Shown here in pieces: positions 11,391 to 48,530 of a stretch of 64,000 nucleotides of DNA. Under the pieces are notes generated by a model. That model searched no databases and had not been told where the DNA came from. It saw only the letters and a program-made list of their open reading frames with translations. The first letter of the stretch is position 1. Every line of letters begins with the position of its first letter. Origin of the DNA: Pseudogymnoascus verrucosus (taxonomy: Eukaryota); the NCBI GenBank assembly GCA_001662655.1, contig KV460263.1. One strand, given 5' to 3'. Position numbers and translations under genes: made by a program.

Positions 11391-12309
11391 TTCATAATAC
11401 ACATTCCAAACATTTATCAACGAGAAAAACACGAGTACGAGCCACGATATACCCCTTTGTACCATAGCCGGTTAGCTATCTACTCCAAAATTAGCGTTTT
11501 GACGTCTGTTTTTCGATTTTTTTATATTAATCTTCTTGTTCCTCGCCATTTTCTTGTTCTGTAAGCGATGATATAGCTTTGAGATGCGAGCATTGTCCAG
11601 CGTCGGAGTTATAGTGGCTTACAACTGGAAACAGGGAAGGGTTTTAGGGAGGGGAGCAGGAGATCGGCGTATTGCCAATTATCATTATTTGGTGAATCTG
11701 TGTCCAGCTTGAAATTGTTTACTCATCTTGGGTCCGGTTCAGAGATTGGAAGGAAATGTATTTCATTACACGGAGGGGATGGGAGCAGGGGATATAAAGG
11801 ATCTGGGAGGCGAATCTTCCATACCTACAGAACAATATATCATATTCATGCTAAGTGACCTGCCCTGTTGTGGCACATTGTGCTTAAAGCTTGACCTCTA
11901 ATTTTAAGACGTGGTTATCCATCCGGTTCGCGTCGGGCAAATCAAACATAGGACCTTTCCTCGTGTGTTTAAAATCTGATATTTGAGTTTAAGGCTGATT
12001 GAACTGTTAGAATTTAGGTGCTCATGTAGAAACCAAATATACTCTATCAGACTAAAGTCTCTGAAACTCCGCATCACTTTACTAAGCATTAGTGTGCGGT
12101 ATGCTGGATCGATTATCCATTAAAATTTGGCGCTTGGGCGGGAAGGCTAGGCTGGGCCAAATTTGGCCCAGCTTGAAATCGTAGCCTCGTGGGGAACTTC
12201 ACGCAATCAAGGATGTTATCGGCTGGGTAAAAACTCCAATACTCGACAATTTCTACAGCCTGCGCCTTAAATCCAAATATTAGACATTAAACATTCGAGG
12301 AAAGGTCCC

Positions 12310-13259
12310 ATGTTTGACCTACCCGGCGCGAAGCGGTATGTGCTCAAGTTCAATTGCCATGTAAAACCTGGACGTACCTGATCTGACATATCTACAGCGT
12401 CCGTCGCGACGACCTATACAACTCCGACGACGGCAATGAAGACGCCGCGTCACAGATAGATGACTCTCGCGCGAGGCTCCTTCAAGACCAACTAGCACAA
12501 CTCTATGGCCCCATAACCATTCCGTCACAGGACCCTGTCGCTCCTGGTGGCACAGAACCGTCCCCAGATGCCCCTCCAGCTGAGGCAGAAGACGAGGAAT
12601 TTGAGTTCAGATTATTTGCTCCCTCCACCACAGCGGTTGCCTCGAATGACAACCAATCTTCCAAGCCTGACGAGACGACTACCCAACGAATTATACTATC
12701 CAATTCAGACGACGAAGATCTAGGCGATGGCGCGTTTACCGTACCACAGAGGAGGCTGAGCTGGTATATCGCCGCACCAGCCACAGGAACGAAGAAAGCG
12801 GAGTTTGAAGAGGCAGCTGTGAGTGCGGAGATGGTGCAGCGGGAGAGAGAACATAGGGCATGGGCTCTAGAGAAGCCATGGAGGGTGACAGTTATACGAA
12901 CGGGCTCGGCATCAACCTCACAACCTGCGGCTGCACTGGCAGCCAAGTCAGTCAGCGTGCGGACTGCTGAAGGCGACGGGAAGACTAAAAGGACAAAGCC
13001 GAATAAAAAGAGACGCATTGAAGTTAGGATAAGAGAACGAGCTCTTGCCGAGAAGTTAGAAGCAGAGCGGCTGCGGTGTGCGAAAATGGAGGAAGAGAAA
13101 GCGAGCAGAGGTGCTGAGGATGCAGAGAAGAGGACAGCGCGGAATAGAGAGAGGAAGATAAAGAGGAGAGAGAGGGAGAAAAGGAAGAAGGCAGCTGCCG
13201 CTGGGATGCCCGAACCCTCGGGGGAGGGCGACAGTGGAAGTGAAAGTGATGCCAACTAA
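12310..13259 (+). CDS. Conserved fungal K/R/E-rich protein, probably DUF2011 family
   Basis: MFDLPGAKR, intron 12336-12397, then VRRDDLY; EEFEFRLF motif; basic coiled-coil C-terminus in frame with ORF 12819-13259. Family name from memory. Confidence 0.7.
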
Positions 13260-26005: not shown

Positions 26006-26962
26006 ATGAAGCTATCTATTACTGCCCTTGCAGTCGCGCTTCTTGCCCGAGAGGCATCAGCTCACTGTACGTCCCCAACCTCGATTAAAAATACTGAATA
26101 GGCCCTTACATATGCAGATATCTTTCAATACCTGACTTATGGTGGCACAAAGTTTCCCCAATACCAATATATCCGGAAGAACACCAACTATAACTCTCCC
26201 GTCACCGACCTCACCTCTAATGACCTCCGATGCAATGAGGGCGGCTCGGTCGGTGCTGGGGCCACCATTTCCGTGACTGCAGGTTCAACTGTCACCTTCA
26301 CCGCAGATGTTGCGGTTTACCATCAAGGACCTACCTCCTTCTACATGGCCAAGGCCAGCAGCACTGCTAATACTTTCGACGGCGCCGGCAACGTTTGGTT
26401 CAAAATTAAGGATATTGGCCCGACCTTCTCCAACGGCGCGGCCACTTGGGATCTCGGACTCACCTACAGCGTTACTATTCCCGCCAGCGTACCCAATGGC
26501 GAATATCTTCTCCGTATCCAACAGCTCGCCATCCACAACCCGTGGCCTGCAGGAATTCCCCAGTTCTACATAGAGTGCGCACAGATTTCCGTCACAGGCG
26601 GTGGCAGTGGAGTCCCAGGCCCCTTGGTTGCTATCCCAGGTGCTTTCCACGATACTGATCCTGGATACACTGTCAACATCTACAACGCCTTCACCAGCTA
26701 CACTGTTCCAGGCCCTGCTGTCTGGACTGGCGGGAATAGCGGCGGCGGGGGCGGCGGCGTCACCACCCCACCTGCTACAACAACAAAATCCCCAACAACC
26801 ACTGCGCCACCTACGCAGCAGACATCTACGACACCTCCTACTACTGGCACTGGTTCTCCACTTTATGGGCAATGTGGGGGCACCGGCTGGACTGGCCCAA
26901 CCACCTGCGCTAGTGGCACTTGCAAGGTTACAAACGAGTGGTATAGCCAATGCTTGCCATAG
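26006..26962 (+). CDS. AA9 lytic polysaccharide monooxygenase + CBM1 (type-1/C1-like)
   Basis: Signal peptide then mature His1 (ASA|HY, intron 26067-26117); [43 protein letters not shown]1 [15 protein letters not shown]...WYSQCL. Confidence 0.95.
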
Positions 26963-27718
26963 AGTGAGCGAGCCTGCTAGGGGTGCATGGTTGGAAGGAT
27001 ATTGTACGTCTGTTGTAGAGATTGAATGAATACCTGAACATGATGGAAGACTGTCTTGGAAGGGGCTTTTATTGTACATAATTTTACTATTAGTACACTT
27101 ATAACATGACATTCTCCATAAACCACGTTTCTGCACTGTCTCGCTATGACTTGTGGCTACTTCACCATTCTACTCCCACTCTTGTTGCTAAATGCTGTAA
27201 GTGAAAGACTGTCCAGAACACTGGGATAAAGACGCAGAGGCTAGAAATAGAATCCAAAGAGACTATTCCAATAATTTTGCGGGCAGCACAATACGCCTGC
27301 CAATAAATTCATAAACAGCACACTTAAAAGTTTATTTTAGCAAAGATAGATGACATAGACGTAGGCCATTTACGTATGTAAATATAAATATATACAATAA
27401 TGCTAGGTGTATGTGCAAGGATACATAATTTACCAATCCACCCCCATATTTCACCATTGGCTCTAACTAGAGAAGTCCTTCTTACTAAGCACTTGAATTT
27501 CCAATTTATGGCAAGCATTGGCTGTACCACTCGTTGGTTGCTTTGCAAGTGCCACTAGCACAGGTGGTTGGGCCAGTCCAACCGGTGCCTCCACATTGCC
27601 CATAAAGTGGAGAACCAGTGCCAGTAGTAGGAGGAGTCGTAGATGTCTGCTGCGGAGGTGGAGCAGTGGTTGCTGGGGTTGTTGGGGTTGTAGCAGGTGG
27701 GGTGGTGACGCCGCCGCC
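26750..27718. repeat. 213-bp inverted repeat (26750-26962 / 27506-27718) formed by the two LPMO linker-CBM1 regions
   Basis: Manual gapless alignment: 17 mismatches in 213 nt (about 92% identity). Confidence 0.92.
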
Positions 27719-28486
27719 GCCGCTGCAGCTGAAAACCGAAGGGCCGGGAATAGTGTAGGAGATAGGCGACACATAGAGGTTGAAGAGGATTCCTGGATCA
27801 GTGGACTATATCAAATTAGCAATTGTTCATCATTGGAGGATAGTGGACCGTACCTTGTAAGCACCCGGAAGGCTGACAGTCGCAGGGGAAACAGATCCCG
27901 TGCCGCCGGTGACATTGATCTGGGCACATTCCATGTAAAACTGAGCACCATTCGTGCTGCTGGCGGCATGGAGCGCAATGATTTCACCGCGGAGTAGGTA
28001 TTGACCGTTTGCGATGCAAGACGGGATTGTGATAGACTGAACACCGCCATTTGAAATCAACTTATCCACGGCCCAAAGTTTGCTGGAGGAGTCGTAGCCA
28101 TCTTGCGAGATCTTGAACCAACCGCCGCCAATGCCAGTATCAGTCTTCGCATCGGTAACCTTCTTCATGTAGGCCATGACGGGGCCCTTGTGGGACGAAT
28201 CAATGACATCGGAGGAGGTCGAAGTCAGCGTGTGGCGCCAGTAGGTTTGCACGGTTGAGCCCGCCTTCACATCGATAACGACGTTGCTTGGTGTAGTCGG
28301 GTTAGGACCTCCATTGCAGGCGATGTCGCTAGTGCTAACATCTGTGATTGGGCCGTCGTATGAAGGAACGCGGATGCCAACTCCAACACCATTCACAACA
28401 CCGTTAGATACGAGGTTGGTCATGATGGTGTGGGCTGAGGCGCCGGTGAGCGCTGCAGCGGCAACGACTGAGGATGAGAACTTCAT
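27506..28486 (-). CDS. AA9 lytic polysaccharide monooxygenase + CBM1 (type-2/C4-like)
   Basis: [64 protein letters not shown]; intron 27806-27853; C-terminal CBM1. Confidence 0.95.
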
Positions 28487-32443: not shown

Positions 32444-34564
32444 TTATCCCACAACAACAGAGACGTCCAAATCCAAGTCGATTGACAACCCGGCGGTGCT
32501 GCTGGCAGCGTCTGCCAAAATGACATCTGCAGCCTTTTCACCAATCATATACACAGAGGCAACAGGGAAGAACCCTGGGACCTGTGGGAAAACACTGGCG
32601 TCGACGACACGGAGACCCTTGACACCACGGACTCTGAAATTTCCATCTAGAACAGCCATAGGATCGCTGGCCTCACCGATCTTTACGGTGCTGCTAGCGT
32701 GATGACCCCAAGATTCGTTCTTGATGAACTCCTTGACCTCCTCGTCTGTGGTAACATCTGGACCGGGAATGACTTCCGTGAAATCATTGTTCGGTGCAGC
32801 AATGTTCTTGTAGAGCTTGCGCATCCACGCAATACCCTCCACCTGTGGCTGCAAGTCGAGGTCCTCAGCGCCTGCGGTACCAGCATCAAAGTAGTTGAAG
32901 TTAATAGATGGCATGTCAAGCGGGTTGGTTGATCGGAGAGTCACAGTTCCGGCCTTGTTGTGCTCATGCGCCTTTAGGGAGAGCCAGGAGAAATGCTGGT
33001 GGTCCGCAAGTGCTGCAGCAGTGTAGCCCTGGAAATATCCCCAGAATTTAATAGGGCCGCCGAAGAGGAACGTGTCTCTTTGTCCGTTGGCAACAGTGGA
33101 TTTACGGATTGCCGCGACGGGAATAAGATTTGTGCCATAAGTACCCTTTCCTCCAGCAACATTGCTGCCGGTGGTATACTTTGCGTAACAGGCATCGTCG
33201 GCCGTGGAAAGAAAGGTGCAGCCCTCAAGGAATTTGAAATCGGTGTCGTACTTGACAACAGTGGAAATCTCATAATGATCTTGGAGATTAGTTCCAACAC
33301 CTGGCAGATCGGCAACGACATCAATCCCGAAGCTTTGCAGCTCGTCAGCAGGACCGATTCCGGACAACTTCAGGATCTGGGGAGTGTTGAAAACACCAGC
33401 GGAGAGGATAACTTCTCGGGTTGCATCGACGGATCCGGGAGTTCCGGCAGTCGCTGAAGATGCGCGGGGGTCAGCACTGTACTGGCTAGCGCCATCCAAG
33501 AAGTCAACGCCAATTGCAACTGGCGTCGTGTCGTTGGAGAAGCGGATCTTGGTGACAAAGGTGTTGAGCTTGATCTCCAATGCGTATTTCTTGGAGCCAT
33601 CAGCGTTGACGGCGTTGGCAGTGGCAAGCAAAAAATCGCGTGGGCTGCTTCGAATGCTATCTTTGGCCGCAATGGGAAGGCGATAGACGCCATCAATAGA
33701 ATCGCGACCAAGATAGTCGGTGTTCATGTCAATGGGGAAGATTTTCGCTAGGTCCGATTGAGTCTTAATTGTCTTCTGTTTGGTGCCAAGCGTCACAGCG
33801 TTGACTGCACTGTATATGGCAGTGAGCTTGGGGTCCTGCATGAGGAGCTCGTCAGCCGCCTGGCTGACACCGAGCCAACCGTCAAATCCATGGCCAGCCT
33901 TCTGAATAGCGCTAGCATTGGCGAGGTATTGGTTATCCTCAAGGCGTTTCCAATACTTGCGCATGTTTGCTGGAGACCAGGAAGCGTCTCCAGTCAGCCC
34001 TTGAATATGGCTCCAATCCTCTTGGTGAGGATAGACCGTGACCAAAGCGTTATGAGCAGCGCATCCACCGAGAGTAGCTGCTCTTGGGTACCAGATGCCC
34101 TTAAAGGTAGATCCTTCAGGGGGACTTGTCCCGACGTACGTCTCGCCCGAAGGAGTTTCGTAAGTGGCCTTGCTGTTGAGTTTCTCTCTGGCATCATCGG
34201 GGTAATGGCGAACGAAGAAATCCCAGGACATTGGCTCGTATTCGCTCGCGGCCGCGAAGAAAGCTGGGATCGATTCCTGAACGCTTTCGCCCTGGTCGTC
34301 GCCTGCCTCGAGGAGGAGGACCTTGGCGCCATTGACAGCAAGACGTGCGGCAAGCGTTCCACCTCCGGCACCAGATCCTACAACAATGTATTCATAACTG
34401 CCCAAGTCCGCAGCGCTGGCATCGCGCTTCTCGGATTTACTATTGAAGTGGTTAGAACAGAGGCAGCCGGATGTGCGGCAATTGACTTACTCGGAAGTCG
34501 TTGGGACAGATGCAACCAAACTGGCAGCAATCGCAAAGAAGCTGATGGTACGAAGGACGAGCAT
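32444..34564 (-). CDS. Secreted GMC oxidoreductase (AA3 superfamily)
   Basis: Signal peptide exon, intron 34440-34490, KR site, YEYIVVGSGAGGG, YPRAATLGGCAAHNA, REVILSAGVFNTPQILKLSGIG, PGVGTNLQDH, WGHH, LRVVDASVFP. Confidence 0.93.
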
Positions 34565-34720: not shown

Positions 34721-35117
34721 CATGCCACGGCGGTGCCGATAGTGGCCAATCTCCATATTGTGTGGGTTATAGTTGCAGTGCAGCCTCAATGCAAACGATG
34801 TGATCGAGTTACCCCTGTGCCAACAATGCCTATCTCAATATTGCGTGGGTTGTAATTACAGAGCAACCTTGACAAAAACGACGCAATCCGTTTACCCCTG
34901 TTCGAATGCCTCTCAGAAACATATGCCACGACCGTGTTGACAGTGGCTATCTCCATGTCATGTGGGCTGGCTTATAATTGCTTAGCAACTTTGATAAAGA
35001 CGGTGTAAACGTGTTACCCACGTGCCAACAATGGCCATCTCCACACTGTATCATGTGGATTATAATTACAACGCATTGTTGGAATGGCAATGTGATATAG
35101 CTGGCCCCTGTTCGAGT
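34721..35117. repeat. Four degenerate copies of an ~85-bp unit in the GMC promoter
   Basis: Cores starting at 34733, 34817, 34934 and 35022 share GTGCCRAYARTGGCYATCTC...TGTGGG..TATAATT...TTACCCCTG. Confidence 0.75.
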
Positions 35118-47754: not shown

Positions 47755-48530
47755 GTGATCATAGGCTCTCATATCCTGTCCTGTTGTCCTACGAGAATAG
47801 ACGCTCTTCCTATATCTCGTAGTTGTGGCCTCTGTCCTCGCATCTTATCGTAACAGTCGCTATTTACTTCTTTTGTGTTAATAGGCACTATCCTTACATC
47901 TTATTATGACAGTTGCTATTCCCATCTTTTATGTTAATAGTCACTAATCATAGTCGGAAGCGATATGCGTACGCTTAATTTACGTAGTAATTTACTAACA
48001 TCGCAACTTTCCTTATTTTCTATACCCTATATATAAACACTATTTTATATCCTTTTTAGTAATTAACAACTTCATAATTTTACAAACTTTAAATGCTTCT
48101 AGTATAAGTAGTATTATACATATATATATTATCTATTAAATTTTAGGAATACTAATAGAGAATTTAGGGTAGTTTATATACGTCTTTGTTAAAACAAATC
48201 TACTACATTTCTATCTTTTTATAACCTTAAGTCACTTTATGTATAATTTACTATGTAAAAGTACTTGCGAATTTTAGTGGCTACGTACGTATTTTACTTC
48301 TGCATAGTCGAGCGTACACATATCGCTTCCGACCACGATTATTCTGCTATCCTATTGTAATAGTCGCTATTCCCTTCTTTTCTAATAACAGACACCCTCC
48401 TTCTATCCTATAGTAATAGACACTCTCCTCGCCTCTACCCCTAACAATCACTCTCCCTACTATCTACATTTATAGCGTCCCTCCTCTTCTCCCCTACTAA
48501 CAGACGCCCTCCCCTCCATCTACATTCATA
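47755..48530. repeat. Degenerate ~28-bp minisatellite (approx. TAATAGTCGCTATTCCYWTCTTWT) interrupted by the MITE
   Basis: Recurrent AATAGxCRCTAT / AACAGxCRC units on both sides of the MITE, e.g. near 47851, 47879, 47907, 47935, 48358, 48386, 48414. Confidence 0.6.
47947..48339. mobile_element. Non-autonomous Tc1/mariner-pogo-type MITE (393 bp) with TA target-site duplication
   Basis: 29-bp TIRs ATCATAGTCGGAAGCGATATGCGTACGCT vs ATCGTGGTCGGAAGCGATATGTGTACGCT (3 transitions); TA at 47945-47946 and 48340-48341; very AT/TpA-rich interior. Confidence 0.88.

What the first reader, a model, noticed from the sequence alone, without database searches (positions are those of the whole stretch)
26750..27718. 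Two deeply diverged, tail-to-tail LPMO genes share a near-identical linker+CBM1 (module swap or gene conversion)
Seen: the catalytic domains belong to different AA9 subtypes and have different intron positions, yet the last 213 nt align without gaps at 17 mismatches (8 transitions, 9 transversions; 6 aa changes, only one in the CBM1). Even the normally fast-evolving Pro/Thr linker is shared, and similarity stops at the stop codon. The copies form an inverted repeat with a 543-bp spacer. Inference: recent domain shuffling or ongoing ectopic conversion between inverted neighbours. The mismatch spectrum is not RIP-like, although RIP-like damage appears elsewhere in the window.
Basis: partly seen in the sequence, partly recalled or inferred. 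Interest (0 to 1): 0.75.

Follow-up and report, generated by a model that had tools for sequence, protein, structure and literature searches.

The report
Two cellulose oxidases sharing one tail
Two very different cellulose-oxidising enzyme genes that face each other in a Pseudogymnoascus fungus keep copying their cellulose-gripping tail onto one another; this is a known kind of gene conversion, but it offers a clear view of how a fungal enzyme can gain and keep a binding module.

Summary
Two tail-to-tail AA9 LPMO genes, 38% identical in their catalytic domains, share a 213-nt linker+CBM1 tail with 17 mismatches. It is the most similar of 741 CBM1 pairs compared in this genome (92%; next 78%).

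The likeness is not one recent swap. The genes are annotated as neighbours across Pseudogymnoascus. In 7 of 7 strains compared, the two tails are closer to each other than to orthologous tails in other lineages. An all-A tail clade is rejected, while catalytic domains split cleanly by gene. One related strain carries a 128-nt tract overwritten from A onto B.

The tail type is that of B's Leotiomycete homologues (10 of 10), not A's (0 of 18). So B's family probably gave the module to A long ago, and repeated gene conversion has homogenised it since. Nearest solved relatives suggest A oxidises C1 and B oxidises C4. There is no RIP signature, although a RID-like gene is present.

Verdict: a known process, not found reported for fungal LPMOs in ten searches.

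The parts
26006..26962 (+). Gene A: AA9 LPMO (nearest solved relatives are C1 oxidisers) + Gly/Pro/Thr linker + CBM1, 301 aa; exons 26006-26066 and 26118-26962
26067..26117 (+). Intron of gene A, 51 nt, GT-AG, phase 1, just after the His1 codon
   Evidence: the spliced protein equals annotated entry P0256
27506..28486 (-). Gene B: AA9 LPMO (nearest solved relatives are C4 oxidisers) + linker + CBM1, 310 aa; exons 28486-27854 and 27805-27506
27806..27853 (-). Intron of gene B, 48 nt, GT-AG, phase 0, near the end of the catalytic domain
   Evidence: the spliced protein equals annotated entry P0124
26750..26962 (+). Left arm of the inverted repeat: linker+CBM1+stop of A (Pfam CBM_1 match 26861-26944)
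27506..27718 (-). Right arm of the inverted repeat: linker+CBM1+stop of B (Pfam CBM_1 match 27524-27607)
26741..26758 (+). Poly-Gly (mostly GGC) run at the catalytic-domain side of the shared tract in A; length varies between strains (3 nt left out at 26747 in X2 and X3)
   Evidence: sequence
27710..27721 (-). Matching (GGC)4 poly-Gly run in B
   Evidence: sequence
27507..27634 (-). Part of B's tail that reads as copy A (26834-26961) in run X2, where the window differs at 8 sites: a recent A-to-B conversion tract
   Evidence: 128-nt unitig, 0 differences to A, depth 84.8 against 46-60 for its neighbours, 30-nt overlaps with both arms; the 8 sites
26963..27505 (.). 543-bp unique spacer holding both 3' UTRs, 38% GC, no RIP signature; each UTR has TTATTGTAYATA about 105 nt after its stop (possible 3'-end signal, inferred)

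Best explanation
This is domain-limited concerted evolution between two old, convergently transcribed neighbours. (1) An A-type and a B-type AA9 gene have been neighbours for a long time; a tail-less version of the pair occurs elsewhere in this genome and in other fungi (shown). (2) In an ancestor of Pseudogymnoascus and the L080 organism, gene A received a linker+CBM1 of the B-family type, joined at a poly-Gly run (inferred, about 0.65). This made a roughly 210-bp inverted repeat. (3) Since then the two arms, about 0.5 kb apart, have repeatedly served as repair templates for each other. Short non-reciprocal tracts (tens of nt to about 130 nt) are copied within the arm and stop where homology stops, at the Gly run and at the stop codon. 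The pattern is shown; the repair route (intrachromatid or sister fold-back pairing) is inferred. (4) The products are a probable C1-oxidising and a probable C4-oxidising secreted LPMO with practically the same cellulose anchor (regioselectivity inferred from nearest relatives). Conversion is episodic: slower than divergence of strains within a clade, faster than divergence between lineages.
For: Neighbourhood: consecutive locus tags or accessions for A and B in 12 annotated Pseudogymnoascus assemblies, one of them letter-for-letter identical to the window's proteins and not counted as independent; tail-to-tail layout seen directly in the window, in X13 and in L080. Lineage-specific shared tails. 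Within-strain A-B distance is 0.03-0.12 and is below every between-lineage orthologue distance in 7 of 7 strains. AU tests reject an all-A clade: p 7e-6, 2e-30 and 4e-5 on three row sets. In the gap-free last 44 residues of 6 lineages, 7 of 9 variable columns follow the strain and 2 follow the gene; 1 of 720 pairings is as close as the true one. Catalytic domains split into A and B with SH-aLRT 100. Synonymous sites are homogenised too: dS 0.19 between the window's tails against 1.27-1.94 between orthologous CBM1s of the window and L080. A 128-nt tract is polymorphic between strains; annotated strain F-103 also has the A-type Val in B (possibly the same strain as X2, so counted once). Tail type: the short LYG-type CBM1 is in 10 of 10 named Leotiomycete B-like proteins and 0 of 18 A-like ones; A's closest relatives in the catalytic tree mostly lack a CBM1.
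Against: Between-lineage tests use proteins, not DNA; linkers are low-complexity and their alignment is uncertain; only 4 of 6 lineages resolve as A+B groups (F-4517 resolves weakly, F-4518 never). Two columns stay gene-specific across several lineages, so homogenisation is patchy. In L080 the linkers have diverged and the CBM1s differ at 20 of 105 nt (dS 0.83), so conversion is not universal in the pair. The donor story is not clean: B's sister paralogue B2 has no CBM1, 3 of 96 other A-like proteins (all unnamed metagenome entries) carry the short type, 18 of 30 other B-like proteins carry the long type, and related taxa are not independent draws. The X2 tract is read from unitig layout and depth, not from reads that span it. 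No expression or activity data.
Confidence: 0.8

Rival explanations
1. Reciprocal crossing-over between the inverted arms flips the spacer back and forth and shuffles tails between the genes, so the locus is a small invertible segment.
For: Inverted arms with runs of up to 44 identical nt are a substrate for inversion (general knowledge). One linker type (KAQ...PPTGTG) sits on B in F-4519 and on A in two metagenome proteins.
Against: X13 has the spacer in the window's orientation in one contig, and no strand-change joint was listed in any of 4 runs. The X2 tract is non-reciprocal: both copies read as A. Crossovers alone swap variants and do not make copies identical. Orientation cannot be read in X2-X4, whose unitigs break at the repeat, and the UTR test against L080 was inconclusive.
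Confidence: 0.07
2. Conversion uses a cDNA of one gene as donor rather than the neighbouring chromosomal copy.
For: The tract has no intron and ends at the stop codon. A cDNA donor is proposed for fungal ribosomal-protein paralogues (section heading in PMC6993855; section not read).
Against: The end at the stop is equally explained by the end of homology. Unlinked CBM1 genes are not homogenised, and no conversion is evident between A and the unlinked, 82%-identical A2 (about 75% DNA identity over 614 nt), which favours proximity.
Confidence: 0.05
3. Selection alone keeps the two tails alike, because both enzymes need the same anchor.
For: In the CBM1, dN is 0.013 against dS 0.35, so purifying selection acts on it.
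Against: The tails change freely between lineages but change together within each. Synonymous sites in the linker are nearly identical (dS 0.09). Eight sites, 7 of them in third codon positions, were overwritten at once in X2.
Confidence: 0.04
4. One recent module swap gave a tail-less gene its neighbour's linker+CBM1.
For: 92% identity with sharp borders in the window; tail-less versions of both genes exist.
Against: Both genes have this tail type in L080, which is far older than the A-B tail divergence. A single event predicts A tails grouping with A tails across later lineages, which is rejected.
Confidence: 0.03
5. Assembly artefact: a repeat collapse or chimera.
For: Short-read graphs do break at this repeat in X2, X3 and X4.
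Against: The arms differ at 17 sites; X13 spans the locus in one contig; in X2 both linkers match the window's separate A and B linkers without a difference; the pattern recurs in independent annotations.
Confidence: 0.01

Closest known systems
Interlocus gene conversion between adjacent paralogues in Caenorhabditis (hsp16-48 inverted modules 416 bp apart, hsp70-7/8, fog-2/ftr-1; PMC3966223, passages read)
   Same: Adjacent, sometimes inverted copies; surviving tracts of about 50-200 nt; tracts polymorphic among isolates; unique regions escape conversion, so the genes keep different functions.
   Different: Here the convertible part is only a terminal module on two genes whose catalytic domains have no alignable DNA, and the module appears to have been donated by one family to the other.
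Concerted evolution of fungal ribosomal-protein paralogues (PMC6993855, abstract and outline read)
   Same: Paralogues group by species because of repeated conversion, in parallel across fungal lineages.
   Different: Those are whole-gene duplicates from genome duplication or retroposition. This is about 210 nt at the 3' end of two enzymes of different subtype, in a filamentous ascomycete with a RID-like gene.
AA9 LPMOs with CBM1. For B: PDB 5FOH, 5TKF/4EIR, 4D7U (NcLPMO9A, 9D, 9C; C4). For A: 8B7P, 4B5Q, 3EII, 4QI8 (the last three PcLPMO9D, TtLPMO9E, NcLPMO9F; C1)
   Same: Signal peptide, His1, second His, Gln-x-Tyr motif, Pro/Thr linker, C-terminal CBM1. B's best PDB hits are E 1e-79 to 3e-70 and A's are E 4e-52 to 1e-39. 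Regioselectivity is from the table in PMC5987398; the mapping of 5FOH, 4QI8 and 4D7U to enzyme names is recalled.
   Different: Those enzymes are not reported to share a homogenised tail with a neighbour in the papers searched; activity of A and B is untested.
Repeat-induced point mutation (RIP) of closely linked inverted repeats in Neurospora (bioRxiv 10.1101/2021.04.05.438447, passages read)
   Same: A linked, GC-rich inverted repeat is the kind of target that RID-dependent RIP mutates strongly there; G000 has a RID-like gene and a transition-biased repeat family.
   Different: This repeat shows no RIP spectrum and its spacer is unaffected.

Membership tests
AA9 lytic polysaccharide monooxygenase | AA9 domain above the Pfam cut-off | tested here: met
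   170 and 190 bits against cut-off 27.8
AA9 lytic polysaccharide monooxygenase | His1 after a signal peptide, second His, axial Tyr in a Gln-x-Tyr motif | tested here: met
   Mature numbering A: H1, H70, Q150-F-Y152; B: H1, H81, Q164-F-Y166. Cleavage site inferred from homologues; no predictor run.
AA9 lytic polysaccharide monooxygenase | Copper-dependent oxidative cleavage, C1 for A and C4 for B | not testable with these tools
   Only nearest solved relatives
CBM1 | PF00734 match with four Cys and aromatic binding residues | tested here: met
   50 and 51 bits against cut-off 20.6; four Cys and Tyr/Trp/Tyr visible in the translation
Interlocus gene conversion (concerted evolution) | Paralogous segments group by lineage rather than by locus, while flanking parts group by locus | tested here: met
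   (tails) against (catalytic domains); proteins only
Interlocus gene conversion (concerted evolution) | Synonymous sites homogenised | tested here: met
   dS 0.19 between tails against 1.27-1.94 for orthologues in L080
Interlocus gene conversion (concerted evolution) | Non-reciprocal tracts that differ between strains | tested here: met
   X2: one 128-nt unitig equal to copy A serves both arms; inferred from unitigs in 1 of 4 runs, with a one-site hint at 27635 in X3 and X4
RIP-mutated duplication | Differences almost all C-to-T transitions in CpA context | tested here: not met
   9 of 17 are transversions; 2 of 8 transitions in CpA
Invertible DNA segment | Both spacer orientations exist | tested here: inconclusive
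   Same orientation in X13; unreadable in X2-X4; UTR comparison with L080 not decisive
Invertible DNA segment | A dedicated site-specific recombinase | not tested
   None among the window ORFs scanned with Pfam (7, 12); the genome was not searched
Hairpin-RNA locus | Read-through transcript and small RNAs from the arms | not tested

The most novel reading that the evidence does not exclude
The pair is a selected two-enzyme unit. A C1-cutting and a C4-cutting LPMO have been kept as neighbours across fungal classes, and in this lineage conversion keeps their anchors matched so that both land on the same cellulose sites. More generally, copying from an inverted neighbour, in a repeat short enough to escape RIP, would be a route by which fungal enzymes gain and update CBM1 modules.
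Probability: 0.2. Interest if true: 0.75.

Novelty: new member of a known kind. Interest (0 to 1): 0.52.

Why it matters
Fungal cellulases gain and lose CBM1 tails often (established knowledge), but the step itself is rarely seen. Here the likely donor family, the recipient, the junction, a tail-less control pair in the same genome and strain-level tracts are all visible, so both the route of module gain and the rate of conversion can be measured with public genomes. It also warns that linker/CBM1 sequence misleads orthology and dating, and that short-read assemblies break here. It shows a linked coding inverted repeat persisting without RIP damage in a genome that has a RID-like gene. The process itself is textbook, which caps the interest.

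Tried and rejected
- Spacer orientation from 3' UTR similarity between the window and L080: the orthologous comparisons (3 of 300 shuffles each) were hardly better than the cross comparisons (5 and 4 of 300), so inconclusive. A shared 12-mer in both B UTRs only hints at an unchanged orientation.
- The idea that the first duplication included the 3' UTR: window A and B UTRs do not align beyond chance (50 of 300).
- General homogenisation of neighbouring CBM1 genes: rejected; the 5 other neighbour pairs rank 182-706 of 741.
- Expression: no RNA holder listed; no evidence either way.
- Folding the arms as one strand gives z -33, which any such inverted repeat would; not used as evidence.
- The Fisher p printed is not used, because related taxa are not independent.
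- The metagenome scan gave 19 loci; 1 of 19 (L080) holds the tailed pair and 2 of 19 (L076, L081, near-identical layouts) hold the tail-less pair; the other 16 showed no A+B pair in the DNA held.
- Tricladium A-like and B-like genes share a contig but are 38 accessions apart, so not counted as neighbours.
- The GMC oxidoreductase at 32444-34486 is not clearly an LPMO redox partner; best PDB hits are choline and alcohol oxidases at E about 1e-44.
- Ten paper searches listed no report of this locus or of CBM1 conversion between fungal LPMOs; the library lacks most subscription papers and no supplements were read.
- No structure or complex prediction was run, as neither would decide the question.

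Full report
1. What is in the sequence. The window (G000:C58) holds two convergent genes. Gene A runs 26006-26962 (+) and gene B 28486-27506 (-); each has one intron, at unrelated positions. Both have a Pfam AA9 domain and a C-terminal CBM1, with the copper-site residues in place. The catalytic domains are 37.7% identical and their DNA does not align. The last 213 nt align without gaps at 17 mismatches (8 transitions, 9 transversions; 6 amino-acid changes, 1 in the CBM1), and identity ends at the stop codon. The arms flank a 543-bp spacer. The shared part begins in a poly-Gly run.

2. Is it more than chance, and is it real? A DNA search of G000 finds only these two copies. I extracted all 39 CBM1 matches found in G000 and compared all 741 pairs. 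This pair is first at 92%; the next is 78%, the mean 56%, and the five other pairs within 12 kb are 45-61%. Some of the 39 are split by introns, which lowers their scores. Of 4 public runs laid on the locus (4 of 24 listed), X13 spans it in one collinear contig with 108 other letters, so the layout is not peculiar to this assembly.

3. Organism and neighbourhood. Exon 1 of B is 100% identical to a Pseudogymnoascus protein and A's best named hit is also Pseudogymnoascus. A and B have consecutive locus tags or accessions in 12 annotated assemblies of the genus. One pair is identical to the window's proteins and is not counted as independent. For five more strains only one gene, or a non-consecutive partner, was listed; the list showed 15 of 21 members of the A cluster. 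These lists do not give orientation; tail-to-tail layout is seen directly in the window, X13 and L080. G000 has a second tail-to-tail pair on C26 (A2 and B2; 82% and 71% identical to the A and B catalytic domains) with no linker or CBM1. A tail-less pair also occurs in L076/L081. A-like and B-like genes without CBM1 have consecutive accessions in Phlyctema and Polytolypa. The neighbourhood is therefore older than the shared tail.

4. The decisive comparison. Catalytic domains of 41 proteins split into an A side and a B side with SH-aLRT 100 (P0256 and P0124 stood in for the window's spliced proteins). The tails do the opposite. Each lineage has its own version on both genes: for example VPG, CSGG and NQW in F-4281; GATT in F-4513; NTEPSTNP in 23342-1-I1; VTTPPATT and GTGSP in the window's clade. 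In 7 of 7 strains the within-strain A-B distance (0.03-0.12) is lower than any orthologue distance to another lineage (A-A 0.13-0.27, B-B 0.07-0.24). Holding all A tails together is rejected on 29 rows (p-AU 7e-6), on 14 rows without outgroups (2e-30) and on 14 rows with a sixth lineage (4e-5). The spread of these p values and the low complexity of the linker call for caution, so I also used the gap-free last 44 residues of six lineages (F-4519 dropped for a one-codon indel). There 7 of 9 variable columns follow the strain and 2 follow the gene, and 1 of 720 pairings of A with B is as close as the true one. Against the reading: only 4 of 6 lineages resolve as A+B groups, and within the window's own clade orthologues are closer than paralogues. 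Conversion is thus episodic and patchy.

5. DNA evidence. dS between the window's tails is 0.19 (linker 0.09, CBM1 0.35). Between the window and the distant relative L080 it is 1.27 and 1.94 for the orthologous CBM1s and 1.28 for the last 90 codons of catalytic domain A (small site numbers, near saturation). L080 already has both genes with this tail type, so the window's tails exchanged long after both existed. In L080 itself the linkers have diverged and the CBM1s differ at 20 of 105 nt: conversion there is old or has stopped. In run X2 a single 128-nt unitig equals window 26834-26961 with no difference, has depth 84.8 against 46-60 for its neighbours, and overlaps by 30 nt with the unitigs of both arms, while both linkers separately match the window. 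The window's A and B differ at 8 sites in that stretch. I read this as a recent non-reciprocal A-to-B tract. Annotated strain F-103 shows the same A-type Val in B; it may be the same strain as X2, so I count one event. X3 and X4 have the A-type base at 27635, where X2 and X13 have the window's, a weaker one-site hint of a second tract.

6. Where the tail came from. A CBM1 was detected in 99 of 120 A-like and 32 of 120 B-like hits. Leaving out the Pseudogymnoascus-clade rows (3 and 2), the short LYG-type CBM1 occurs in 10 of 10 named Leotiomycete B-like proteins and 0 of 18 named Leotiomycete A-like proteins; overall 12 of 30 against 3 of 96 (class assignment is from my knowledge of the organism names). 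Apart from JGI21747, which belongs to the tailed pair, A's nearest relatives in the catalytic tree lack a CBM1. The simplest history is that A received a B-family tail, probably by an inverted copy of the neighbour's 3' end joined at the Gly run. This is inferred. B's sister B2 has no CBM1, so either B2 lost it or B gained it from another B-family gene.

7. Mechanism and RIP. Two arms 0.5 kb apart with identical runs of 32 and 44 nt can template repair for each other; tracts cannot extend into catalytic domains or UTRs that share no homology. Tract lengths and the polymorphism match those reviewed for adjacent Caenorhabditis paralogues (PMC3966223, passages). G000 has C5-methyltransferase matches at four loci. 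One has the PCQ and EQT motifs that mark RID/Masc1 enzymes (PMC6709928, passages); I did not check that it is intact. A repeat family with a copy at 47945-48341 shows 203 transitions to 133 transversions, 99 of the transitions in CpA and 9 in CpC context (5 copies compared), a moderate RIP-like bias. In Neurospora linked inverted repeats are strongly mutated by RID-dependent RIP (bioRxiv 10.1101/2021.04.05.438447, passages), and RIP hinders evolution by duplication (PMC12543289, Introduction and passages). The LPMO tails show no such spectrum (2 of 8 transitions in CpA) and the spacer indices are normal. Likely reasons are short length near the RIP threshold (about 150 bp for linked repeats; recalled, from no call), weak or past RIP, selection, or repair by conversion. 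I cannot separate these.

8. Function. B's nearest solved relatives are the Neurospora enzymes listed as C4 oxidisers; A's include those listed as C1 oxidisers (table in PMC5987398, passages; part of the PDB-to-name mapping is recalled). So the pair probably provides both cleavage chemistries with one anchor type. Whether matched tails help is untested; homogenisation may be a neutral by-product of the layout. PMC5750222 (passages) reports that non-pathogenic Pseudogymnoascus species are CAZyme-rich, which fits the many AA9 and CBM1 matches here.

9. Comparison and verdict. It works like, and by the tests above is, domain-limited interlocus gene conversion. Ten searches of the paper library listed no report for this locus or for CBM1 tails of fungal LPMOs; the library is incomplete and no supplements were read. 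Earlier scan notes describe similar tail conversion in prokaryotes (unchecked), which suggests the process is common. New member of a known kind, well documented, with an informative history. Interest 0.52.

Noticed in passing
G000:C26:119000-131200 (L071, L072): The tail-less copy of the LPMO pair (B2 +, A2 -) lies in a cellulose-degradation cluster: a cellobiose-dehydrogenase-like gene with CBM1, the pair, a GH6-like cellobiohydrolase with CBM1 and a third AA9 (names from my reading of the translations). The GH6 - A2 - B2 - dehydrogenase order appears conserved in L076.
   Followed up: partly
Proteins P0095/P0150 (Polytolypa) and P0097/P0143 (Phlyctema): A-like and B-like AA9 genes have consecutive accessions in two fungi of different classes. 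Polytolypa A nests among the Pseudogymnoascus-clade A proteins in the quick tree, which could be transfer or poor sampling; not tested.
   Followed up: partly
window 47945-48341: MITE-like element with 31-nt terminal inverted repeats (90% alike) and an AT-rich interior; about 20 related places in G000 at 72-87% identity, with a CpA/CpT transition bias.
   Followed up: partly
window 11923-11995 and 12264-12336: A 73-nt inverted repeat (82%) around 268 nt, single-copy in G000, just upstream of a DUF2011 ORF.
   Followed up: partly
window 26963-27505: The spacer unitig has half the depth of the flanks in X2 (27 against 54), two thirds in X3, and slightly more in X4. AT bias or hairpin suppression in library PCR are possible; unexplained.
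   Followed up: no
window about 27067-27084 (+) and 27384-27400 (-): Both 3' UTRs carry TTATTGTAYATA about 105 nt after the stop, and L080 gene A has it at a similar distance; probably a 3'-end processing signal.
   Followed up: partly
window 32444-34486 (-): GMC oxidoreductase about 4 kb from the LPMO pair; best PDB hits are choline and alcohol oxidases, so a role as LPMO partner is open.
   Followed up: partly
window 34754-35048: Three degenerate 90-nt direct repeats (62-70%) upstream of the GMC gene.
   Followed up: no
G000:C43:50915-54367 (L097): RID/Masc1-like cytosine methyltransferase with PCQ and EQT motifs; PMC6709928 lists EET for the P. destructans enzyme.
   Followed up: partly
Proteins P0128, P0260, P0270, P0272: Several public models of gene B have a wrong end (N-terminal extensions of 69-102 aa, or a C-terminus that runs on inside the CBM1).
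   Followed up: no
G000:C5:393479-397465 and C59:118905-122134: Two further pairs of neighbouring AA9 genes on the same strand, one of each with a CBM1; no shared tail detected.
   Followed up: partly
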